NCBI GenBank assembly: GCA_963762255.1
Contig: CAVXKA010000002.1
Coordinates: 1,312,001-1,376,000 of the forward strand
Reading direction: 5' to 3'
DNA: 64,000 nucleotides
Origin: Candidatus Eiseniibacteriota bacterium
GTDB taxonomy: Bacteria > Eisenbacteria > RBG-16-71-46 > JABDJR01
Positions 8,509 to 31,538 of this stretch are shown piece by piece; positions within the stretch are counted from its first letter, which is position 1, and each line of letters opens with the position of its first letter. Made by a program: the position numbers and the translations under genes. A model generated the notes under the pieces. That model was given only the letters and a program-made list of their open reading frames with translations. It ran no database searches and was not told where the DNA came from.

Positions 8509-8545
8509 TAGCTCTGGGAATCGAACGGTTCTTGTGGAGGGGTCT

Positions 8546-9650
8546 ATGAGCCTGCAGCAGGAAATCGACAACGCCCGGGAGGACATTCGGACCGACGGCT
8601 ACGCGGTCTCAATCGGTGAGTGGATCAGTCTCTACGAGAAGGAGGAGATCGACATCCACCCCGAATTCCAGCGCTTCTTCCGATGGACCCCGGAACAGAA
8701 GACTCGGCTAATCGAGTCGATACTGTTGGGAATTCCGGTACCGCAGATCTTTGTTGCGCAACGTGAAGATGGCGTGTGGGACGTCGTCGATGGCCTTCAA
8801 CGACTATCCACAATCTATCAGTTGGTGGGGATCCTTAAAGACGAAGAAGGTCGTAGCGTTGCCCCTCTCGTCCTCACCAAGAACCGAGTACTTGCCATCC
8901 CTGGCGGGGAGGCAGTGGGATTCTCCGGGGTCACCGGAAGAGTCGTTGACGTCTGCACAACGGTTGCTGATCAAGCGGGCGAAACTGGAAGTCTCGATCA
9001 TTCTCCGGGAGAGCGAAGAGCGTACTAGGTACGAGCTATTCCAGCGTTTGAACACAGGTGGGTCGCAGCTCTCCGATCAAGAGGTGCGAAATGCCATCTT
9101 GGTTATGCTGAACCGCGATCTCTATCAGTGGATCACTGACCTTGCGCAGTCGACCGACTTCGTGGAGACAATTGCGCTTTCCGACCGATCCGTCGATGTG
9201 CGTTACGACATGGAGTTGGTTCTGCGGTTTCTCTCACTGCGTCGCGCCGCCGAGGACGACCTAAAGAGCGTCGGGGACCTCGGCGACTACCTGACGCAGC
9301 GGATGCGCGATATGGCGACAGATCAAGCGTTTCGTCGTGGTGAAGAAGAGCAGGCATTCCGGGACACCTTTGCGTTGCTGAATCGATGTGCTGGCAGCGG
9401 TTCGTTTCGGCGCTGGGACGCCGGGCGCCAGAAGTCGGTTGGCGGGTTCTCGGTGTCAGCATTTGAGGCCGTTGCCCTTGGAATCGGCTTTAGCCCGCGC
9501 GATGCCATCCAAGATTGCGCTAGCCTGCGAGAACTGATTCACGGTCTCTGGGCTGAGGCGGAATTCACGGAGAATGCGGGGTCCGGAATTCGGGCATCAA
9601 GCCGAATTCCAAAGGTTGTGCCCTACGGTAGGACGCGGTTTCAGGTTTGA
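8546..9650 (+). CDS. DUF262 (ParB/Srx-like, GmrS-type) protein, +1 frameshift near 8880
   Basis: Motifs PEFQR, LIESILLGIP, VVDGLQRL and FQRLNTGG match the DUF262 QR/DGQQR/FxxxN set; removing one A at about 8882 restores LTKTEYL. Confidence 0.85.
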
Positions 9651-10288
9651 GTATTCAAACGGAAGAGGTTCTCTCCGATCGCCTGGCCGATGACTTGATC
9701 TGGCGAAAGAAGGAGCTCACGGTGCTCAAGAAGCTCGTCAGCTCGGCTTCTCTGGATCGCGAGGCCGTCCTAGTTCGGTCACTGGTGGCACTTCTGTACG
9801 CTCATTGGGAGGGTTTCGTAAGGAACGCCGGACTGTGCTACCTCCAATACCTGTCACCGCGGCGCCTGCGGTACTCTGAGTTGGCTTCTAACTTCGTGGC
9901 CCTTTCCCTCCTGCCGCGCATTCGGGACGCGGCCTCACGTCACAATCTCTCTGAACTAATCCAAGTGGTTGAGTTGCTCCGTGATCAGCCCGAAGAGAGG
10001 TGCAGAATGCCCAAGGACGCCGTCGACACGGAGTCCAATCTGTCTTCCAGAGTCCTGCATGATCTCATGACCGCTATGGGACTTGACTACGCGCCCTTCG
10101 AGACCAAGGCAGTGCTCATCGATGAGCGTCTTCTTGGCAACCGCAATCGAATAGCTCACGGAGAATATGTCGCCCTCGACGCTCGCGATAGTATCGAGCT
10201 GGCCGATCAGGTTCTGGCCCTGATGGAGGGTTTCAGGGATCAGCTCGAGAATGCAGTAGCGTTGTCCAGGTACCGAAAATCAGCCTAA
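9647..10288 (+). CDS. MAE_28990/MAE_18760-like HEPN nuclease
   Basis: Motifs DLIWRKKEL, LYAHWEGFV and RxxxxH in RNRIAHG; translationally coupled to DUF262. Confidence 0.85.
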   Translation: MSIQTEEVLSDRLADDLIWRKKELTVLKKLVSSASLDREAVLVRSLVALLYAHWEGFVRNAGLCYLQYLSPRRLRYSELASNFVALSLLPRIRDAASRHNLSELIQVVELLRDQPEERCRMPKDAVDTESNLSSRVLHDLMTAMGLDYAPFETKAVLIDERLLGNRNRIAHGEYVALDARDSIELADQVLALMEGFRDQLENAVALSRYRKSA

Positions 10289-10392: not shown

Positions 10393-10734
10393 GACCGTTG
10401 TCGCAGTCTTCGCGCTGCCTTGTCTGAAGTCGCCCACGCCGCCAGCTCCCGCCCATGAACGCGGGGGGGGCATCGCACGGCGTCTTCCGATGGCTGTTGT
10501 CGTGATTGTGCCGCCGCGCGACCCCAGGCATCCTGGGGCCATCGCATGTTTCGTCGTGGGACCATCCAGGACTGCGAAGTGTCCGAGACAGGCGGAGCAG
10601 AGTTACACTGGGCGGCAGTACCGGTTTCCGAGAGCATTTCTGCTACCCGATCCTCTTGAGCAGGCTTTCAGGAGCTCATCATATCGCACTTGAGTCGCAG
10701 GACTTGCGTTTCATGCGCGAGGAGGGAGTCAGTG

Positions 10735-12000
10735 ATGGCGCGCCGCGGTTTCTTCGCTGAACTTCAACATCAATCAAAGGTCGCCGCCCGAGAGCGGGCA
10801 CGGGATCTGCGGGAAGCGCAGCGGGCGCGCGCGGGTGCGATCCGCGAGGCCGAACGGACCCGAAGAGCCGAGGAACGTGCAAGAGATCAGTGGTCCCGGG
10901 CGACTGCGGCGGACAAGAAGCGGCTAGCACGGGAAGCCCGGGACGCTCATGTTGCCGCCATGGAAGCGGAGGTACTGGAGAAGAACCTCGAACTCGCACA
11001 GGTGTACGACGAGCTGGACTCTCTGCTTGCGGCGACCCTGGCAGTCGATGATTTTGTGGACTTGAATACACTGCGTACTGTCGTCGAGCACCCACCATTC
11101 GATCGAACCGATCTGGAAGTGCCCATCCCCACACCCGATCCTATTGCTGACCCCCTCAGGCCCGTCGTTCCCCCACTTCCCCCACCTCCCAAGGGACTGC
11201 AGGGGTTGTTTGGCAAGAAGAAGTACGGACAGGCACTCGCCGAAGCAGTAGCTGCTCATGAACGCGCCGTTGCACGCTGGCAGGCTGAACTACCCAAGGC
11301 AGAGGCGGCCCGGAAGGCGGCGGCGACTCAGCACGCTCAAGCAGAGGCCCGGCGCCTCTCAGACCTTGCGGCGGCCCGGGACCGCTACGCCGCAGAGTGT
11401 TCAGCGCGCGAAGCAGAGGCGGAGGACCGAAACAGAGCCCTCGATGCCCTGATAGCCAACCTTGGCTACGGAACCGTTGACGCCGTCCAGGAATACGTGT
11501 CCATCGTGCTGTCAAACTCCGTGTATCCGAAGCACCTCTCGATCGAACACAGCTTTGCGTTCGACGTTGCAACTGCAGAGCTGCGACTGCGCGTGCTAGT
11601 ACCGGGCCCCGACAAGGCGCCTACCATTGGCACGTACAAGTACAGCAAGGCATCTGACGAGGTCACGACCACCGCATTGTCGCAGAAGGCGTGCAAGGAC
11701 CGGTACGCGAATGTGGTGTACCAAGTCGCCCTCCGATCGATGCATGAGGTTTTCGAAGCCGACCGTCGCGGATTGGTGAAGTCGATTTCTTTGGAGGTCG
11801 GGACTGAAACCATCGACCCGGCCACGGGGAGAGAGATCTACATCCCATTCGTCGCGGCGGGCGCTGAGCGGGATTCGTTCCTGGCCCTGGATCTTTCAAA
11901 CGTGGTCCCATCCGCCACCCTGAGTCACCTAGGCGCGGCCGTCTCAAAGAATCCATTCGGTTTACTCGCCGCAGATGTATCGGGAATCCGACGCGCATGA
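10735..12000 (+). CDS. Coiled-coil protein resembling the N-terminal region of long Mrr-type restriction proteins, lacking the nuclease domain
   Basis: Starts MARRGFFAELQ; long R/E/A helix; LLAATL, Pro-rich linker, YQVALRSMHEVFEAD, DPATG; ends with no PD-(D/Q)xK segment. Confidence 0.6.
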   Translation: MARRGFFAELQHQSKVAARERARDLREAQRARAGAIREAERTRRAEERARDQWSRATAADKKRLAREARDAHVAAMEAEVLEKNLELAQVYDELDSLLAATLAVDDFVDLNTLRTVVEHPPFDRTDLEVPIPTPDPIADPLRPVVPPLPPPPKGLQGLFGKKKYGQALAEAVAAHERAVARWQAELPKAEAARKAAATQHAQAEARRLSDLAAARDRYAAECSAREAEAEDRNRALDALIANLGYGTVDAVQEYVSIVLSNSVYPKHLSIEHSFAFDVATAELRLRVLVPGPDKAPTIGTYKYSKASDEVTTTALSQKACKDRYANVVYQVALRSMHEVFEADRRGLVKSISLEVGTETIDPATGREIYIPFVAAGAERDSFLALDLSNVVPSATLSHLGAAVSKNPFGLLAADVSGIRRA

Positions 12001-13361
12001 CTCCCAAACACCTAGTCTTCAATCCGCCTCCCGGATGGCCCAAGCCCCCTGAAGGATGGTCTCCCCCAAAGGGCTGGACTCCGGATCCCACTTGGCCAGA
12101 TCCACCGGATGGCTGGCAGCTTTGGCTCCCCGCCGAATCGCCAGGTGATGAAGCGACCCCTTCTGAAGACTTCAGCGGCGGGATCAGCAGCCCCCAATCA
12201 CCACCACAAGCGCAACCGGCGGCGGTACAAGTGCCTGCCGACGCCGATCGGCGGACCATGCTCCTTGAAGCCGAGATCACCGCGCTTCGGGCCCAATTGC
12301 ATGCAGCCGCATCCGCGGCTGACACCGTCGTGCTTGACGACGAGTGGGTTCTGCAAGAGGCAGGAGTCTATCGGTACCACCACCCCCTCGAGAACGCGGC
12401 GGCGTACAAGGATCGTCTCGCCGATCTGAGCATGCGCATCGCAACTCTCATCAAGTCCGGGGGCGCAATCGAGATGTCGAACAGCTTCACCTTCGACAAC
12501 TCCCTCGCCAAAGGCCGCCAGATGTCCAACGACCTCGGCAAGCTCATGCTGCGTGCGTACAACGCGGAAGTGGACAATAGCCTACGCGCGTTGCGAGCAG
12601 GCAACGTCGTCACAGCGAAGCGACGTATTGATGCTACGCGAACCGCAATCAAGAGACTCGGGCGGATGATGCAGATGCAGATCAGCGATGCATTTCACGC
12701 CTTACGTCTCGAAGAGCTCGAATTGACCGCCGACTTCATGATGAAGAAGGAGGAAGAACGCGAGGCGGCTCGCGAAGAGCGCGAGCGCCTTCGTGAGGAA
12801 CGAAAGGTCGAGGCCGAACTCGCAGCGGAGCGGGAAAGGCTCGACAAGGAGCGAACTCATCTCGTGAACGCACTTGGGGCACTACGGAACGGGGGAGCGA
12901 CCGATGTTGAGTTGGAGCGCAAGCTCGCTGAACTCGATGATGCAATCGCCCAGAATGACTATCGGGCAGCCAACATCAGGGCGGGTTACGTCTACGTAAT
13001 CTCGAATCGGGGCGCGTTTGGCGCCGACGTTGTGAAGATTGGCCTGACTCGCCGATTGGAGCCGCTTGACCGCGTAAGTGAACTGAGCGGGGCCGCAGTG
13101 CCGTTCCGTTTCGACGTCCACTGCCTGATCTTCTCCGAAGATGCCGTCACCCTCGAATCCGAATTGCACAAGCACTTTGGCAATCGAAGAGTCAATCACG
13201 CCAACGAACGCAAGGAGTTCTTCTTTGCAAAGCCAGGAGACGTGCGCGCAGCTCTCACTTCCCGAGTTGGCACGCTTCTCGAGTTCGCAGAACACGCTGA
13301 ATCGACGGAGTACCTGCAGAGCGTTCGCTACTGGCCAGAGGACCTCAAGAGGGATAGCTGA
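11997..13361 (+). CDS. DUF4041 + T5orf172/GIY-YIG nuclease (SNIPE/PD-lambda-1-like)
   Basis: KLMLRAYNAE (DUF4041), coiled coil, then RAGYVYVISN..AFG..VVKIGLTRR..P.DRV.EL...VPF.FDVH...RKEFF. Confidence 0.9.
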   Translation: MTPKHLVFNPPPGWPKPPEGWSPPKGWTPDPTWPDPPDGWQLWLPAESPGDEATPSEDFSGGISSPQSPPQAQPAAVQVPADADRRTMLLEAEITALRAQLHAAASAADTVVLDDEWVLQEAGVYRYHHPLENAAAYKDRLADLSMRIATLIKSGGAIEMSNSFTFDNSLAKGRQMSNDLGKLMLRAYNAEVDNSLRALRAGNVVTAKRRIDATRTAIKRLGRMMQMQISDAFHALRLEELELTADFMMKKEEEREAAREERERLREERKVEAELAAERERLDKERTHLVNALGALRNGGATDVELERKLAELDDAIAQNDYRAANIRAGYVYVISNRGAFGADVVKIGLTRRLEPLDRVSELSGAAVPFRFDVHCLIFSEDAVTLESELHKHFGNRRVNHANERKEFFFAKPGDVRAALTSRVGTLLEFAEHAESTEYLQSVRYWPEDLKRDS

Positions 13362-13413
13362 GCGCGGACCCAGGCCGCCAGTCAATGACGGGAGAACCGC
13401 CTCACCTGCCCCC

Positions 13414-13659
13414 CTACCCCACCTCCACCCACTCCTCCACCACCAGCACGTGCCGATGCCGCTGCCCTCGCACGCGGATGCGCTTCCCCACCAGCGCATC
13501 GAGTTCCGGATCGCTGGGCGGTCGCACTCCAACAAGACGCAGCACGAACTCGCCGTAGCGGGTCGAGAGCATGACCGCATTGCGCTCGCTCTTGGATCCC
13601 TCGGCAATCCGGCTCCGGATCACGTCGCCGGTGTATTGCTTCGTCTCGCTCGCCACCAC
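13414..13659 (-). CDS. Small beta-rich hypothetical protein with GSKSE motif
   Basis: Starts 7 nt after the C25 stop with RBS AGAGG; OB-fold-like pattern LVGKRIRVRG. Confidence 0.7.
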   Translation of the reverse strand: MVASETKQYTGDVIRSRIAEGSKSERNAVMLSTRYGEFVLRLVGVRPPSDPELDALVGKRIRVRGQRHRHVLVVEEWVEVG

Positions 13660-13666
13660 GTGCCTC

Positions 13667-15259
13667 TTATCGCCGGTAGATGACCGTCAAGTCGTCCACG
13701 GCCCCGTCCACCTCTCGGACCACCAATAACTGCTTGGGTTCAACCCGGGGGCCCGCGACCTTCGGCTGAGCCTTACCGCCAACCGTTCTCACCAGCGGCA
13801 CCACGAAGTACTGCGTCTTGTGCTTGGCGAGCCGCTTGGCGAGCGCCGCCACCGGCGCTCCATCGCCCCTACGCATCCCAAAGCGATCCACCCGTCTCCC
13901 CAGAGCATAGCCCCTGGGCAGGCGTAGCCGAAAACGCGACAGCGCTCCGACCGACAGCACCTGCGCGCTGCCCGGATCGGCGGTGGCGATCGTGCGCTCG
14001 ATCGCACGCCCGCGCGCGGCCAGCACGTGTCGGCGGTCGACTCGCGCCGCCAACCACGAGACCGCCTTCGCGGCGGCGCCCTTGCCCTTCTTCGCAGCAC
14101 TCTTCGCTGACTGCGTCTTCTTCCCACCCTTCTTCGCCACCACCGGCTGGATCGACGGATCGCCGATCAGGTTGAACTGCGCCACGGTCTTGAGATCCAC
14201 CGGCCCCATCGTTCCTCCCGCCTCGATGTAGCGCTGGCGGGCTTGAAGCGCGGCGCGCCCCAGCGACGCCCCGTCCCGCACTGCCTGGATGAACTCGATG
14301 CAGAGGAGGTCGGCGTACTCGGTGCCGTCGGCGGGGCCATACGCAACCGTGCTGCTACCGAAGAAGCCCCACGCGCCTTCGCCCAGGTAGCGTTGCGAGA
14401 TCCCCATCTCCGTGCCGGTGGGATCGTAGAGCTCCGCGCCGTAGCAGCACTCGGCGGCGATCACGGTGCCCGACACCACGCGTCCCGAAAGATGGGTCGA
14501 GAGATGCGCGATCGGCTGGTCGTTCTCGTTCGCCTCCGCCTGCCCAAAATACGCAGGGAACGCGACGTCGCCGTGGCAATTGATGAAGTGCACGCGCGGC
14601 TTGAGCACGTTGGCCGACCACGTGGGGCCCTCGGGGGGCGAGAGATGGACGCCCTTTGTCGATCCGAAAAGCTTCTTCATGCTCGCGCGGGTGGAGCCCT
14701 TCCATACTTCGGCGGAGAGCGCGAAGTGGCTCTTGTAGCTCGCGCGACTGCGCGACGTCCACGAGGCGGCGCGATCGATCACGCCCACGAAGTAGCCCGT
14801 GTCGCCACGGCCCATGATGTCGGGGAGCCGCCCCACGACGCGCCCGGGCCCGAGGAAGTCTGTGATGTCGAGGCTGTAGCCCGCGTCGCACGCGTAGGGC
14901 AGATCCGACTCCACGCGCCGGTCCGGATCGGTCGTGGCGGAGAGCGGGTTCTTGAGCTGAACGTGCGGGATCACGTCAGGCGCGCCAAGAAGCAGCACGT
15001 AGTGCGGAGCGAGCGCGGCGCAGATCGCGTCCACCGCGCGCTTCACCTGGCGCGCGTCGCCGGCGGAGGTCACCCGCGGTCCGAACGGCTTCATGTCCTC
15101 AGCGCGATCGATGTGAACCACGATGGTCGTGATCCCGCGCTTCTTGTCGGCGGCGATCATGCGGTGGACGGCGGCGCGGAGCTTCGGCATGCCCGCCGCC
15201 TTGTGCTTCTTGCGAAGCGCCACCGAGTTCGCAACGATCACCTTGTGCACCGGGCTCAT
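13667..15259 (-). CDS. C25 (gingipain-like, clan CD) cysteine peptidase without signal peptide
   Basis: Motifs YVLLLGAPDVIP, VGRLP, FINCHG (His), AECCYG (Cys), FNLIGDPS; ATG at 15259 preceded by AAGGGGG. Confidence 0.82.
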   Translation of the reverse strand: MSPVHKVIVANSVALRKKHKAAGMPKLRAAVHRMIAADKKRGITTIVVHIDRAEDMKPFGPRVTSAGDARQVKRAVDAICAALAPHYVLLLGAPDVIPHVQLKNPLSATTDPDRRVESDLPYACDAGYSLDITDFLGPGRVVGRLPDIMGRGDTGYFVGVIDRAASWTSRSRASYKSHFALSAEVWKGSTRASMKKLFGSTKGVHLSPPEGPTWSANVLKPRVHFINCHGDVAFPAYFGQAEANENDQPIAHLSTHLSGRVVSGTVIAAECCYGAELYDPTGTEMGISQRYLGEGAWGFFGSSTVAYGPADGTEYADLLCIEFIQAVRDGASLGRAALQARQRYIEAGGTMGPVDLKTVAQFNLIGDPSIQPVVAKKGGKKTQSAKSAAKKGKGAAAKAVSWLAARVDRRHVLAARGRAIERTIATADPGSAQVLSVGALSRFRLRLPRGYALGRRVDRFGMRRGDGAPVAALAKRLAKHKTQYFVVPLVRTVGGKAQPKVAGPRVEPKQLLVVREVDGAVDDLTVIYRR

Positions 15260-15276
15260 GGAATTCCCCCTTCGCG

Positions 15277-16939
15277 CTACCGGCTCATGTGATCCCGAAG
15301 TCGCCGTGACGCCATCGTCCATCGTACCGCGCCCTTCGCCTTGGCGCCCCGCGCCTTCTTTCCGCGAGCCCGGTCGCGTACCGACTGTCGGAGCTTGGCA
15401 TCCGTCGCCAGGTGGAAGGCGATCTCGGGCCCGAAGTCTTCGAGGAACGCGTCGAGCGTCGCGTCCGTCACTTTGAACGTCGCGGCCAGCGCCTTTCGCA
15501 TCGCCGCCGGTGGAAGATCCGGGAAGAGCGCCAGAACTTCCTCGAGCGGCGTCACCCGCGCGGCGCGGCGCTTCGCCATGCCCTTCGCCTTGGGTGTCGT
15601 TGGAAGCGGCGCCTTCAGGAGTCGCTCGGCATCGAGAGTCCCGGCCCCATACTCCCGCGCGTCCCATCCCGCGGGCCGTCGGACTCCCGCGGTCACGAGC
15701 ACCTCGCGGAACACGGAAGCGAGGTTGGCCCTTCCGTACTTGGCGATGAGGCGATCTCTTCCATGGTACGCGAGCCAGAGCGCGCAAGCGCCGGCGGTCG
15801 TGGTCACCGCGAACGAGGTCCCCGTCCCGCGCTCGGCCGTGTACGCCGTGGGGTTGTCCTTGGGCGTTCGCGCCACCCACACCGATTCGCCGGGAGCGGC
15901 GAGATCCACGTCGGCGCCTCGCGCGGTGAACCTCCATGGTTTCCCCGCGCAGTTGACGGCGGCCACCGCGATGACCGCGTCGAGCCTCGCCGGGTAGACC
16001 ACCCACGGCCAGTAGTTCCCGGCGGCGGCGAGGACGATGACGCCTTGCCCCACCGCGTGATCCACGGCATTGCGCAGAGCGTTGCTCGCGATCGGCCCGC
16101 CGAGCGACATGGAGATGACGTGACAGCCGGCGTCGACGGCGCGATAGATGGCGCGCGCGACGTTGAGGAAGTTGAAAACCACAACCGTTTCGATGACGCG
16201 AAGGGGAACGACCTCGGCCATGGGGGCGCTTCCGGTGACCCACAGCGCGGCGCCGGCCCGCGCCCGGCCCGATGCCGCTCATGATGACGCTGGCGGTGGC
16301 GGTCCCGTGGCCTTCGTTGAGCCCGCTCCGCAACGGATCGCGCGGATCGGCCTTCGAGTTCACGAAGTTGAATCCGAGGTCCGTGCGGACGCGCTGATGC
16401 GGGCCGGGCTCCCAGATCTCCGGGTGCGGCGTGTAGCCGGTGTCGGGATGGCCGACGCGGATGCCCTCACCGAAGCGCTTCCCCTTCCCATGCTTGGGCA
16501 GCGCCACGGCCCACGCGTCGACGACCCGGCTCTGCTTGAGGCTCCATTCGCAGTCGGCGGAACAGGGCTTGGGGGCCTTTGCGAGGAGGGACTTGGGCGC
16601 GGGCTGTTCGTCGGGGGCGAGTAGCTCGCGAAGGTGCTTCGGATCGGGTTCCAGCCCCGGGAGTTCGAGAAGCGGCTCGGCATCCAGAACGTCGCGGTCA
16701 GCGACCAGACGATGCACGTGGTCCCACGCCGTGGAGAGCATGATGCGCTTGGATTTCCTGTCACGAAGGACCACGAAATCGCGACTGCCTCCATGAATGG
16801 GTTGGACGCTCCATCGGCCCGGGAGGTTCCTGCCCACTATCTCGCGGGCGAATCCGAGCGCGGCGGCGTGCGACTCGATAGGGTCGCCCGCGTGAATGAG
16901 GAGGCCTTCGCAGATCGGTGTGACGTTGGATCGGGGCAC
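15277..16939 (-). CDS. S8 subtilisin-like serine peptidase without signal peptide, +1 frameshift near 16250
   Basis: Triad motifs GHPDTG, GHGTATASV and GTGTSFA; oxyanion AAAGN; SMSLGG. Confidence 0.88.
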
Positions 16940-17126
16940 TGGATCTCCCGGTTGATCCTCTTGGGGGTCTGCCGGTTCCCGAGGGGACAGTATACGGCGA
17001 TTCGCAGTCCTGTTCGAGCTTGGACGGCAAGAACCACGTGGCTATCCTGGCTCGACTATGAGCCAGCCGCTGAGGCGCGGCGTCGGATCCATCCATTCTG
17101 GGCTGAACGGAAATGAGGGCAGACTC

Positions 17127-28074: not shown

Positions 28075-29274
28075 TCAGAATCGCAGGAGCGCCCCGATCG
28101 GCTCCGCCACCGGGAGAAGCGCGCGCCCCTCCTCGCTGCGCACCAGCTCGAGTCCGGCTTCCTGCACCACCGCACGCTCGAGCGCGGCGTCGACGACGTC
28201 CTCCACGGCCTCGACGGGTCCCCCGCAAGCGGGACAGCTTGGGGCGCCCGCGACGAGAAGCAGCCGGCAGTTGAGACACTCTCCCCCCGCGGCGCGATAC
28301 CGATCGTGCACGACCAGCGTCATCACCCGGCGCTCTTCGAGACGACCGAGAGCGGCGGCGAGGCCCCAAACCCCGCGGCCGGTCGAGATCCAGTTCTCCA
28401 GGCGCCGGATCGTCTCCGTTTCCTCGCGGGCCTCCACGCGCCGCTGCACGGGCTCGATCGCGGCGATGATCTCGCTCGTGGAAGCGTCGATGGCGAGCGC
28501 AAACTCCCCCGCCCATCGGCGGAGCACGTGGGCCGGCAACGCGGCGCGGTACTCCGCGAGGACCTGCGGCGATCCGCTCACCAGGAGATGGCGAGCCTCG
28601 AAGCGTTCCAGGATCATCTCGGTGGCGTGCGCCACAGCGCCCGCATGCCACATCACGTGGGCGTCGCGACTGCGACGGAAACGCAGCCGGCTCCGGCTCC
28701 CCTCATTGTGCTGATCGGGAGTCTCCTCGATGATGTCGGCCACCTCCTCCAGCGATCCAAGCTGGCTCAGGAAGAGCCGCGCGCGCTGGTTGTCCAGGAG
28801 CACCACCGCGAAGCGATCGTGCTCGTCGCGCACGCGCGCGAGCGGGCGAAGGTAGGGGCGCCGGCCGATCCTCAGTCGCGTCGGCAACGCGATCGGCAGC
28901 GAGATCGACCACCACAGCTCGCGAGCCGGGCACGAGAAGAGTGCCGCCCCCCGTCCCATCCGCGCCGCGTGCTCGCGGATCCAGCGCTCCATGCGCGCGA
29001 TCTCCGCGCGCACCACATCCGCGTCCGGGCGCGCATCGTTCGCGGCCAGCGCCACACGCGCCGCGGTCTTGAATGCGATCTCCCAGGCATCGTTGTGGCG
29101 GTTCTGCGGGCTCAGATCGAGGTAGAGGCTCACGACCGGACCCTCGTCGCAGGTCACGGCCGCCAGCTCGGCAAAGCGCCGGTGAGTAAGCACGGCCAGC
29201 GGTCCGTCGACGCCGAGATCTTCGAAGCGGGAGAGAAGCGCATCGCGTTCCTGTGGAGTCAAGGTGGCGGTCAT
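28075..29274 (-). CDS. Bacterial archaeo-eukaryotic release factor-like protein (baeRF10-like)
   Basis: Motifs VVSLYL, G.ALF, PYLRPL, Zn-ribbon CLNC...CPACG and C-terminal IGALLRF. Confidence 0.8.
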   Translation of the reverse strand: MTATLTPQERDALLSRFEDLGVDGPLAVLTHRRFAELAAVTCDEGPVVSLYLDLSPQNRHNDAWEIAFKTAARVALAANDARPDADVVRAEIARMERWIREHAARMGRGAALFSCPARELWWSISLPIALPTRLRIGRRPYLRPLARVRDEHDRFAVVLLDNQRARLFLSQLGSLEEVADIIEETPDQHNEGSRSRLRFRRSRDAHVMWHAGAVAHATEMILERFEARHLLVSGSPQVLAEYRAALPAHVLRRWAGEFALAIDASTSEIIAAIEPVQRRVEAREETETIRRLENWISTGRGVWGLAAALGRLEERRVMTLVVHDRYRAAGGECLNCRLLLVAGAPSCPACGGPVEAVEDVVDAALERAVVQEAGLELVRSEEGRALLPVAEPIGALLRF

Positions 29275-30422: not shown

Positions 30423-31538
30423 ATGAGTCGGACTCGGCGCTCCAACTGGACACTGCTGCCTCTCCTTGCGCTGGCCCTCGTCCTCACCGTTACGATGTGG
30501 ACGGGTTGCGGCAACGAGCGCATGGAGACGGTGAGCGGCCCCGATCTAGCGAATCCCTCCCTTGAATTCACAGTCGACCATCCCTCGATGCGCACCGTCA
30601 TGGAAGTCCAGGATCGGCACACCCCCGATCTCTTCCAGGTCGAAGGCGTGGTCGGCACCGCCACTGCTCTCAACGAGGCCGGCGAGCCGGTCATCGTGGT
30701 CTACTTGGCCCAAGCACTCCCGAAGGGCATCATCTCCGAGCACTTCGACGGCGTCGAAGTCATCACCGAAGTGACCGGGGTGTTCCGCGCCATGAAGACC
30801 GTCACCTCTTCGCACACCGCGAAGCAGGTCGCTCCGATCCAGCTCGGCACCTCGGGCGGCTGGCGCTATGACCTCGCCAACGGCTACTGCTGCGGCGGCA
30901 CGCTGGGCTCGCTGGTCCTGAAGAGCGGCACCCAGTACGTGATGAGCAACTACCACGTGCTCGAGGCCGACATCGTCTCCGGCGGCAACAGCCGCGTCGC
31001 GACGGCCGGCGACCCCGTCGTCCAGCCCGGTCTCATCGACGTGGGCTGCGTCGCTACCAGCGCCCAGAACGTGGCCACCCTCTCCGGGATCAAGAGCCTC
31101 CCCGGCTCGAACGTGGACGTGGCCATCGCCGCGGTCATCCCCGGTATGGTTCGCACCGACGGCGCGATCCTGGAAGTGGGCACGATCTCTTCGCAGACCG
31201 TGGCCGCGTTCGTCGGCCAGCTCGTCAAGAAGAGCGGGCGCACCACCGGGCTCACCCGCAGCACGGTGAGCGGCCTCAACGCCACCGTTTCGATCGCCTA
31301 CGAGAACGAGTGCGCGGGCGGCGCCGCCTTCACCAAGACCTTCACCGGTCAGATCGTGATCGCGAACAGCCGCAGCAAGTTCCTCGCCGGCGGCGACTCG
31401 GGTTCGCTCCTGGTCGAGGACGTCACCACCAGCCCGCGCGCGATCGGTCTCCTCTTCGCCGGAAGCACGACCACCGCGATCGCGAACCCCATCAGTTCCG
31501 TGCTGAGCTACCTCGGCGCGACGATGGTCGGGAACTAG
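30423..31538 (+). CDS. Nal1-like trypsin-fold serine protease, predicted lipoprotein
   Basis: Lipobox-like WTGC; GTLG, SNYHV (His), DVAIA (Asp), KSGRTTG, GDSGS (Ser). Confidence 0.88.
   Translation: MSRTRRSNWTLLPLLALALVLTVTMWTGCGNERMETVSGPDLANPSLEFTVDHPSMRTVMEVQDRHTPDLFQVEGVVGTATALNEAGEPVIVVYLAQALPKGIISEHFDGVEVITEVTGVFRAMKTVTSSHTAKQVAPIQLGTSGGWRYDLANGYCCGGTLGSLVLKSGTQYVMSNYHVLEADIVSGGNSRVATAGDPVVQPGLIDVGCVATSAQNVATLSGIKSLPGSNVDVAIAAVIPGMVRTDGAILEVGTISSQTVAAFVGQLVKKSGRTTGLTRSTVSGLNATVSIAYENECAGGAAFTKTFTGQIVIANSRSKFLAGGDSGSLLVEDVTTSPRAIGLLFAGSTTTAIANPISSVLSYLGATMVGN

What the first reader, a model, noticed from the sequence alone, without database searches (positions are those of the whole stretch)
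13414..16939. Cytoplasmic subtilase + gingipain-like C25 protease + small protein operon abutting defence genes
Seen: three tightly spaced minus-strand genes (gaps of 17 and 7 nt). They encode an S8 protease with a complete triad, a clan CD C25 protease with His/Cys motifs and an 81-aa protein. Neither protease has a signal peptide or secretion C-terminal domain. The operon converges on the SNIPE-like gene. Known: gingipains are normally secreted, and intracellular clan CD and S8 proteases act in bacterial immunity and cell-death systems (gasdermin-associated caspases, IetAS). Inference: a two-step proteolytic cascade with a regulator or effector that I cannot match to a named system.
Basis: partly seen in the sequence, partly recalled or inferred. 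Interest (0 to 1): 0.8.

Follow-up and report, generated by a model that had tools for sequence, protein, structure and literature searches.

The report
Cytoplasmic gingipain-like protease with OB-fold partner
A bacterial relative of the gingipain proteases that stays inside the cell always travels with a small partner protein that probably plugs its active site, and with interchangeable dormant enzymes (here a subtilase) that it probably switches on by cutting after lysine; it looks like an undescribed protease switch rather than part of the neighbouring phage-defence genes.

Summary
The three genes are real, but the conserved unit is two genes. The C25 protease and the 81-aa protein were adjacent in 144 of 160 related loci; all 16 misses end within 306 nt of the protease gene. 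The pair also occurs as fusions. The subtilase joined it in only 9 of 160 loci; an SGNH hydrolase or metallophosphoesterase fills the slot elsewhere. The protease has a gingipain fold and a gingipain-K-like pocket, so it probably cuts after lysine. The small protein is an OB-fold with an invariant Lys in a GSKSE loop; the co-fold gave weak support (0.56 vs 0.01). That Lys changes where the protease's pocket residues change. The subtilase prodomain linker has Lys in 10 of 10 C25-linked copies and Arg in all 8 copies beside CHAT or caspase genes. Best model: inhibitor-capped, lysine-specific C25 activates a swappable zymogen (about 0.5). A defence role is unsupported: codon use differs from the neighbouring defence genes, relatives have other flanks, and related loci are not defence islands. 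The subtilase has one frame break, probably an assembly error. I found no description in print.

The parts
15277..16939 (-). Signal-less S8 subtilase zymogen (about 553 aa when intact): prodomain, Lys linker, catalytic domain, helical C-terminal domain. One frame break near 16263. Swappable partner, probable substrate of the C25.
16586..16597 (-). Proposed C25 cleavage site in the S8 prodomain linker (P-K116-S-L; Lys codon 16592-16594), 16 residues before the first Trp of the catalytic domain
   Evidence: aligned column is Lys in 10 of 10 C25-linked S8s and Arg in 12 of 18 others; coordinates; cleavage itself is inferred
13667..15259 (-). Cytoplasmic gingipain-fold (C25, clan CD) cysteine protease, 530 aa: catalytic domain 4-372 (His229, Cys272; Trp186, Asn227, Glu270, Cys271, Asp317 invariant), Lys-rich linker 373-405, C-terminal domain 406-530 of unassigned fold
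14045..14143 (-). Lys-rich linker between catalytic and C-terminal domain; K-[S/G]-hydrophobic motif enriched across the family; proposed self-processing site
   Evidence: 60 of 124 distinct linkers vs 19.8 expected, 0 of 2000 shuffles; kin are not independent
13414..13659 (-). 81-aa OB-fold protein with a GSKSE loop between strands 1 and 2 (Lys23, codon 13591-13593); near-obligate partner of the C25; proposed substrate-like inhibitor
13409..17001 (.). Approximate limits of the three-gene cassette: contigs of related strains match within these limits and run on as unlike sequence beyond them
   Evidence: loose ends at 13409/13413 (2 runs) and 17000/17001 (3 runs)

Best explanation
The core is a two-gene cytoplasmic protease switch: a gingipain-K-like cysteine protease and a small OB-fold partner. 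SHOWN: near-obligate pairing in both directions, fusions, gingipain fold, His/Cys dyad, no export signal, a variable third gene. INFERRED step 1: the protease cuts after Lys (about 0.75). Step 2: the OB protein puts its GSK|SE loop into the active site like a substrate and holds the protease off (about 0.55). Step 3: when the cap is removed or outnumbered (trigger unknown; no sensor is conserved), the protease cuts its own K-[S/G]-hydrophobic linker. It then cuts Lys sites in the N-terminal extension of a co-encoded dormant enzyme, here the subtilase at Lys116, elsewhere an SGNH hydrolase or metallophosphoesterase (about 0.55). Step 4: the freed enzymes destroy proteins, lipids or nucleotides as a regulated stress, dormancy or cell-death output (about 0.4). 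The position beside the defence genes is shared use of an insertion site.
For: Pairing: 144 of 160 loci, all 16 misses with at most 306 nt downstream. Reverse test: 7 of 7 new OB hits among 600 sampled genomes lie beside a C25. Fusions P0220 and P0261. Pairwise identities of the two proteins correlate, r=0.72 over 126 pairs. Fold: RgpB Z 30.4 (rmsd 3.0, 303 aligned), Kgp Z 27.1. Kgp-like motifs: Kgp T442-A-H444-G445, N475-C476-C477, W391, Y512-W513 (sequence, roles in PMC6426963 passages) match N227-C-H229-G230, E270-C271-C272, W186, A306-Y307. Invariant D317 fits Kgp D516 if an 8-residue insertion is allowed. OB fold; OB-fold peptidase inhibitors exist (potempins). Lys23 is in 126 of 126 paired rows and 191 of 195 profile rows. 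Where it changes, pocket residues change too: L187 (N227K, E270M; Lys to Gly), P0261 (N227V; Arg), Myxococcota clade (C271A; Arg/His/Lys). Co-fold score 0.56, best control 0.01; runs agree in at least 52% of contacts; partner pLDDT at least 73. The mark was reached by 116 of 157 solved complexes and 2 of 215 mismatches, but at 0.60 or under by only 18 of the 157 and by both mismatches, so this is weak. S8 linker: Lys in 10 of 10 C25-linked copies (6 by locus, 4 by shared contig length), Lys in 1 and Arg in 12 of 18 unlinked, Arg in all 8 beside CHAT or C14. S8-linked C25s fall in at least three parts of the C25 tree. Alternative partners are signal-less with Lys-rich extensions.
Against: No activity, binding or phenotype is shown. 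The co-fold gave no interface, so Lys23 in the S1 pocket is not modelled. The OB match is generic: best Z 7.3 to an ssDNA-binding protein, 6.8 to PotA, none at 8 or more. In potempins the main inhibitory loop is between strands 4 and 5, not 1 and 2. The pocket/loop covariation rests on 3 independent cases, and one Myxococcota copy keeps Lys. The S8 tree is poorly resolved, 9 of the 12 Arg copies are one clade, and Lys could be ancestral. The SGNH test is muddier: K[S/G] in 9 of 11 linked vs 6 of 31 unlinked, but Arg motifs also in 7 of 11 linked; one SGNH resembling the linked type sat in a genome where no C25 was found (fragmented, no positive control). Most loci have no recurring third gene and no sensor. 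Ala/Lys-rich tails are common in such bacteria (my knowledge). No defence enrichment.
Confidence: 0.5

Rival explanations
1. The OB protein is the sensor or activator, not an inhibitor: it binds single-stranded nucleic acid or another ligand and turns the C25 on, or it is a substrate whose cut loop releases a signal.
For: Top structural neighbours are SSB/PriB-type nucleic-acid-binding OB folds. Basic residues Lys23, Arg41 and Arg42 are conserved. No other sensor is conserved in the loci. Weak co-fold support fits any binding mode.
Against: The invariant Lys sits in the same K-S context as the putative cleavage sites, and it changes together with S1-lining residues of the protease. SSB matches are under Z 8, where a shared fold shows no function.
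Confidence: 0.2
2. A housekeeping or stress protein-turnover pair with no death or conflict role. The S8 is only co-transcribed and matures itself; the Lys/Arg linker is its own site or is trimmed by any basic-specific protease.
For: Flanks are mostly metabolic genes. Codon use is host-like. No relative was found in viral contigs. The same S8 clade also occurs with no clan CD gene in the fetched region in 10 of 18 cases.
Against: Patchy spread is unlike housekeeping genes: the OB gene is in 1 of 206 genomes of the own phylum, 2 of 300 and 5 of 300 elsewhere. The S8 clade sits beside CHAT or caspase genes in 8 of 18 other loci. The partners resemble effector classes of conflict systems.
Confidence: 0.18
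3. The order follows the genes: the S8 is the initiator and activates the C25 by cutting its linker or destroying the OB cap.
For: The S8 is first in the operon in 8 of 9 loci. The C25 linker is long and exposed (pLDDT 66-69).
Against: The C25-OB pair lacks an adjacent S8 in 151 of 160 loci, so it cannot generally need it. The linkers of both proteins carry Lys motifs that fit C25 specificity.
Confidence: 0.08
4. The operon is part of the adjacent defence island and works with the SNIPE-like, Mrr-like and DUF262-HEPN genes.
For: It lies 52 nt from a PD-lambda-1/SNIPE-like gene in a low-GC stretch.
Against: Different GC3, different flanks in related strains, no such neighbours recurring in related loci.
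Confidence: 0.04

Closest known systems
Gingipain K and R (Kgp, RgpB; MEROPS C25, clan CD) of Porphyromonas gingivalis
   Same: Catalytic-domain fold (Z 27-30), His-Gly and Cys motifs, Kgp-like S1 residues.
   Different: No signal peptide and no N-terminal inhibitory prodomain (gingipain's latency device). It has a Lys-rich linker plus a 125-aa C-terminal domain outside the structural match, and a separately encoded OB-fold partner.
SAVED-CHAT / PCaspase / PCi cascade of Haliangium ochraceum (10.1101/2023.06.23.546230; passages seen)
   Same: Cytoplasmic clan CD protease that activates a second protease by cleavage, with a small co-encoded inhibitor.
   Different: C25 instead of CHAT and C14; second protease is an S8; the small protein is OB-fold, not CI-2-like; no SAVED, cyclase or CRISPR genes recur in the loci.
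Protease-effector zymogen modules: MBL, alpha/beta-hydrolase, Pepco, EACC1 (PMC12642450; abstract, sections 4 and 10 and passages seen)
   Same: Protease plus a dormant effector opened at a linker whose P1 residue fits the protease.
   Different: The main text has no mention of C25, gingipain or SGNH (supplement not seen). Those proteases are fused to sensors; this one has none and has an obligate small partner; the effector slot is often empty.
Potempins PotA/C/D of Tannerella forsythia (PMC9890683; passages seen)
   Same: Small five-stranded OB-fold encoded next to its cognate peptidase; structural match to PotA Z 6.8, rmsd 2.3, 65 aligned.
   Different: Potempins are outer-membrane lipoproteins that inhibit metallo- and serine peptidases mainly through the loop between strands 4 and 5. 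This protein is cytoplasmic, pairs with a cysteine protease and conserves the loop between strands 1 and 2.
IetAS (AAA ATPase + S8 protease; definition recalled, not read)
   Same: Cytoplasmic S8 protease in a small operon.
   Different: No ATPase partner; only a weak generic PADLOC subtilase hit (36 bits).

Membership tests
Peptidase family C25 (clan CD) | Pfam PF01364 above curated cut-off | tested here: met
   37.1 bits vs 23
Peptidase family C25 (clan CD) | Gingipain two-subdomain alpha/beta catalytic fold | tested here: met
   model pLDDT 88.9, pTM 0.91; RgpB Z 30.4, rmsd 3.0, 303 aligned; next family (separase) Z 15.8
Peptidase family C25 (clan CD) | His-Gly ... Cys catalytic dyad | tested here: met
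   H229, G230, C272 in 126 of 126 rows; C272 kept where C271 is lost
Peptidase family C25 (clan CD) | Cleavage after Lys or Arg | not testable with these tools
   inferred from Kgp-like motifs and linker motif enrichment
Gingipains proper (secreted) | Signal peptide and N-terminal prodomain | tested here: not met
   the catalytic fold starts at residue 4; 1 of 120 homologues flagged hydrophobic
Gingipains proper (secreted) | C-terminal Ig-like and secretion domains | tested here: inconclusive
   structural matches end at residue 399-405; residues 406-530 were not folded or searched alone; no usable Atlas hit
Subtilase family S8 | Pfam PF00082 and Asp-His-Ser triad with oxyanion Asn | tested here: met
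   68 bits vs 21.8; residues located; split by one frame break in this assembly, intact in homologues
Potempins (OB-fold peptidase inhibitors) | Five-stranded OB-fold | tested here: met
   model pLDDT 80; all top rows are OB folds, best Z 7.3, PotA 6.8; generic level
Potempins (OB-fold peptidase inhibitors) | Outer-membrane lipoprotein signal | tested here: not met
   no hydrophobic N-terminus in the window protein; 4 of 194 homologues flagged
Potempins (OB-fold peptidase inhibitors) | Reactive loop between strands 4 and 5 | tested here: not met
   that turn is 2 residues and variable; the conserved loop is between strands 1 and 2
Potempins (OB-fold peptidase inhibitors) | Inhibits the co-transcribed peptidase | not testable with these tools
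   co-fold weak support only
SAVED-CHAT/PCaspase cascade | SAVED-CHAT initiator, C14 PCaspase and type III CRISPR or cyclase genes | tested here: not met
   none in the window region scanned nor recurring in related loci
IetAS | AAA ATPase gene beside the S8 (recalled) | tested here: not met
   neighbours are the C25 and a 255-aa protein with no family hit
Bacterial gasdermin systems | Gasdermin gene beside the protease | tested here: inconclusive
   none among 139 neighbours scanned with Pfam; no dedicated gasdermin search; the reference paper was not held

The most novel reading that the evidence does not exclude
A widespread, undescribed bacterial and archaeal lysine-specific caspase-like cascade. 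A cytoplasmic gingipain is capped by the first OB-fold inhibitor of a clan CD protease, and opens interchangeable death or dormancy zymogens (subtilase, SGNH hydrolase, phosphoesterase). The same subtilase zymogen is re-keyed by one linker residue (Lys for C25, Arg for CHAT or caspase) each time it is recruited by a different activator.
Probability: 0.35. Interest if true: 0.85.

Novelty: new variant of a known kind. Interest (0 to 1): 0.68.

Why it matters
C25 proteases are known as secreted virulence or processing enzymes. A cytoplasmic branch with a dedicated small partner and swappable zymogens would add a new activator class to bacterial proteolytic cascades and a new inhibitor scaffold for clan CD proteases. 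The model gives residue-level predictions that are cheap to test (Lys23 of the OB protein, Lys116 of the S8, Asp317 and Cys272 of the C25). It also suggests that the linker residue of an orphan zymogen can predict which protease activates it. The family is large: 2668 C25 hits at E <= 1e-10 among 8000 candidates scored and 953 OB clusters at 50% identity.

Tried and rejected
PADLOC and NCBIfam gave no family for the C25 or the small protein. Sequence searches of solved structures with the C25 profile or its catalytic part found nothing, so the Kgp mapping went through a canonical C25 of the same genome; the profile-profile alignment to those proteins was weak (probability 8%) and was not used for residue mapping. 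No C25 relative in viral contigs; the OB alignment could not be used for that collection. The Atlas gave only unnamed clusters and a 0.90 lead to DUF5818 for the OB protein (Pfam DUF5818 15.5 bits is under cut-off 27) and nothing for the C25 C-terminal domain. A cystatin/PepSY-like fold for that domain is only a guess from the strand order. No tRNA, sigma-70 promoter or convincing boundary repeat. No RNA holder listed. A recurring 500-aa downstream gene (5 loci) has no Pfam hit and is confined to close relatives; not treated as a part. More distant C25 relatives in 4 genomes of the own class had no OB gene within 1.5 kb. Literature searches for a description: 0 papers; two searches listed 8 and 5 papers, none on this module by title or abstract start. 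PMC7159879 has no C25 or gingipain in its main text. Subscription papers and supplements were not searched. My notebook says 8 PADLOC hits; the output shows 7.
Full report
OBSERVATION. The S8 has a full Asp-His-Ser triad but one frame break between 16262 and 16242. Homologues 80-89% identical are intact 553-554-aa proteins. Two contigs of related strains from soil runs lack one base at 16263/16264. The DUF262 gene nearby is also split. An assembly error is the likeliest cause, but this genome's own reads were not available. None of the three proteins has an export signal by a simple hydrophobicity test.

THE CONSERVED UNIT IS TWO GENES. I fetched the best 80 of 538 genome loci and the best 80 of at least 543 metagenome loci that encode a relative of the C25. 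They span many bacterial phyla and one archaeal bin. The small gene follows the C25 in 144 of 160; all 16 misses have at most 306 nt of contig left. In the reverse test, the OB profile hit 2 of 300 sampled genomes of one phylum and 5 of 300 of another, and all 7 lie next to a C25. Two proteins fuse both domains (P0220, P0261). The pair is patchy: the OB gene was found in 1 of 206 genomes of the window's own phylum, the window's genome itself. The S8 is adjacent in only 9 of 160 loci (3 cut by contig ends, one of these a weak hit; 6 of 113 loci with at least 2 kb upstream). Other recurring neighbours are an SGNH hydrolase (11 loci, all adjacent and co-oriented) and a calcineurin-like phosphoesterase (8 loci, two of them near-identical, some several kb away); caspase, CHAT-NACHT-TPR and TIR-WD40 genes occur once or twice. 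Most loci have no recurring third gene. S8-linked C25s fall in at least three places of a FastTree C25 tree (part of the drawing was cut).

THE PROTEASE. The model (pLDDT 88.9, pTM 0.91) matches RgpB (Z 30.4) and Kgp (Z 27.1) over residues 4-400, far above separase and CHAT (Z under 16). His229, Gly230 and Cys272 are invariant in 126 rows. Kgp binds a P1 lysine with Thr442, Asn475, Cys476, Trp513 and Asp516, and Trp391 lines S3 (PMC6426963 passages). With the Kgp sequence shown, these map by motif to Asn227, Glu270, Cys271, Tyr307, Asp317 (after an 8-residue insertion) and Trp186, all invariant or nearly so. This mapping is by motif, not by atomic distances. There is no N-terminal prodomain. 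A Lys-rich linker (373-405) leads to a C-terminal domain of unassigned fold. In 124 distinct linkers the motif K-[S/G]-hydrophobic occurs in 60, against 19.8 in composition-preserving shuffles (0 of 2000); the Arg version is not enriched, 15 vs 11.8. Related sequences are not independent, so this is suggestive.

THE SMALL PROTEIN. It models as a five-stranded OB-fold. Matches are generic: best Z 7.3 to an ssDNA-binding protein, 6.8 to the peptidase inhibitor PotA. Its most conserved part is the loop between strands 1 and 2, G-S-K-S-E; Lys23 is in 126 of 126 paired rows and 191 of 195 profile rows. That K-S reads like the linker motif. Where Lys23 changes, S1-lining residues of the partner change too. 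In L187 the protease has Lys at 227 and Met at 270 and the loop has Gly. In fusion P0261 the protease has Val at 227 and the loop has Arg. In a Myxococcota clade the protease has Ala at 271 and the loop has Arg, His or Lys. That is three independent cases. The co-fold with matched alignments scored 0.56 against a best control of 0.01, with runs agreeing in at least 52% of contacts and partner pLDDT at least 73. The tool calls this weak: the mark was reached by 116 of 157 solved complexes and 2 of 215 mismatches, but at 0.60 or under by only 18 of the 157 and by both mismatches. It gave no interface.

THE SUBTILASE LOOKS LIKE A SUBSTRATE. Its prodomain ends in a linker with one alignable basic residue, Lys116 in the window. 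Among 28 homologues with some context, that column is Lys in 10 of 10 C25-linked copies (6 by locus, 4 inferred from shared contig lengths). Among 18 copies with no C25 in the fetched region it is Arg in 12, Lys in 1 and other in 5. All 8 that lie beside a CHAT or C14 caspase gene have Arg. The caveats are a poorly resolved tree and one clade supplying 9 of the 12 Arg copies. The SGNH and phosphoesterase partners are also signal-less with Lys-rich N-terminal extensions. The SGNH contrast is weaker: K[S/G] in 9 of 11 linked vs 6 of 31 unlinked, but Arg motifs in 7 of 11 linked as well, and one linked-type SGNH came from a genome where no C25 was found.

THE DEFENCE LINK IS NOT SUPPORTED. GC3 is 0.83-0.86 in the operon, like host genes, and 0.66-0.67 in the SNIPE-like, Mrr-like and DUF262-HEPN genes. 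Contigs of related strains match the window only between about 13409 and 17001 and then run on as other sequence. In 16 loci drawn at random from the 40 full-length genome loci, 7 of 102 flanking ORFs hit PADLOC at 1e-10: a kinase, two mad3-type hits, one mad2-type hit, a protease domain, a subtilase and one methyltransferase (crude gene calling, no matched baseline). No relative was found in viral contigs. This does not exclude a stand-alone immune role; it removes the neighbourhood as evidence.

MECHANISM. Most likely (0.5): a Lys-specific cytoplasmic gingipain is held off by a substrate-like loop of its OB partner; on release it cuts its own linker and the Lys linker of a co-encoded zymogen, here the S8. 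Pairing, folds and motifs are shown. Specificity, inhibition, order and output are inferred, and the trigger is unknown. Rivals: OB as sensor, activator or substrate (0.2); turnover role with a self-maturing S8 (0.18); S8 first (0.08); part of the island (0.04).

COMPARISON AND NOVELTY. It works like the SAVED-CHAT/PCaspase/PCi cascade (passages) and the protease-zymogen modules of PMC12642450 (abstract, two sections and passages), but it is a member of neither. The protease is a C25 family member but not a secreted gingipain. The small protein shares only a fold with potempins (passages). Searches found no description; subscription papers and supplements were not searched, and the gasdermin paper was not held. 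I found that arrangement in 5 Myxococcota loci with an OB gene between the two (SPFH hit in 1 of the 5), so it is probably a sister branch. Verdict: new variant of a known kind, interest 0.68.

Noticed in passing
L216, L217, L219-L222: The same S8 clade with an Arg linker heads a different operon: S8, HExxH-motif protein (5 of 6), CHAT protein, a 1800-2100-aa protein (the one scanned has no Pfam hit), and a C14 caspase further on in 3 loci. Looks like a separate undescribed cascade.
   Followed up: partly
L182-L186: Myxococcota variant: large double-zinc-ribbon protein (SPFH hit in L186), then the OB gene, then a zinc-ribbon C25; OB loop has Arg, His or Lys.
   Followed up: partly
P0220: C25-OB fusion that lacks the catalytic His and the C-terminal domain: a possible pseudo-protease with tethered partner.
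   Followed up: no
L053:11520-13289; P0231, P0170, P0204, P0302: Other fusions of the OB domain: to a phosphoesterase (L053), to a small unassigned domain (P0231), a tandem pair behind a signal-like N-terminus (P0170), and within unassigned proteins.
   Followed up: no
L094, L096, L144, L155, L156, L162: A bAvd-like / 23S rRNA-intervening-sequence protein gene is inserted between the C25 and OB genes in 6 loci.
   Followed up: no
window 8534-10288 (+): DUF262/GmrSD gene split by a frame break, followed by a MAE_28990-like HEPN gene; PADLOC NsnA and PD-T4-2_A hits.
   Followed up: no
window 10690-13361 (+): A 436-aa protein matching the N-terminal part of a type IV restriction model (107 bits), overlapping a SNIPE-like gene whose N-terminus is Pro/Trp-rich rather than hydrophobic.
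   Followed up: no
L020: The C25-OB pair occurs in a bin titled Nitrososphaeraceae archaeon; binning not checked.
   Followed up: no
L167-L171: The window's genome has five canonical large C25 proteins (Pfam over 200 bits), at least three with signal-like N-termini.
   Followed up: partly
window 28078-29274 (-), 30423-31535 (+): A baeRF10 release-factor-family gene and a secreted-looking protein with a Nal1 C-terminal domain.
   Followed up: no
L036:3866-9745: An RHS/SpvB/TcdB-type toxin-like gene lies directly upstream of the pair in one locus.
   Followed up: no
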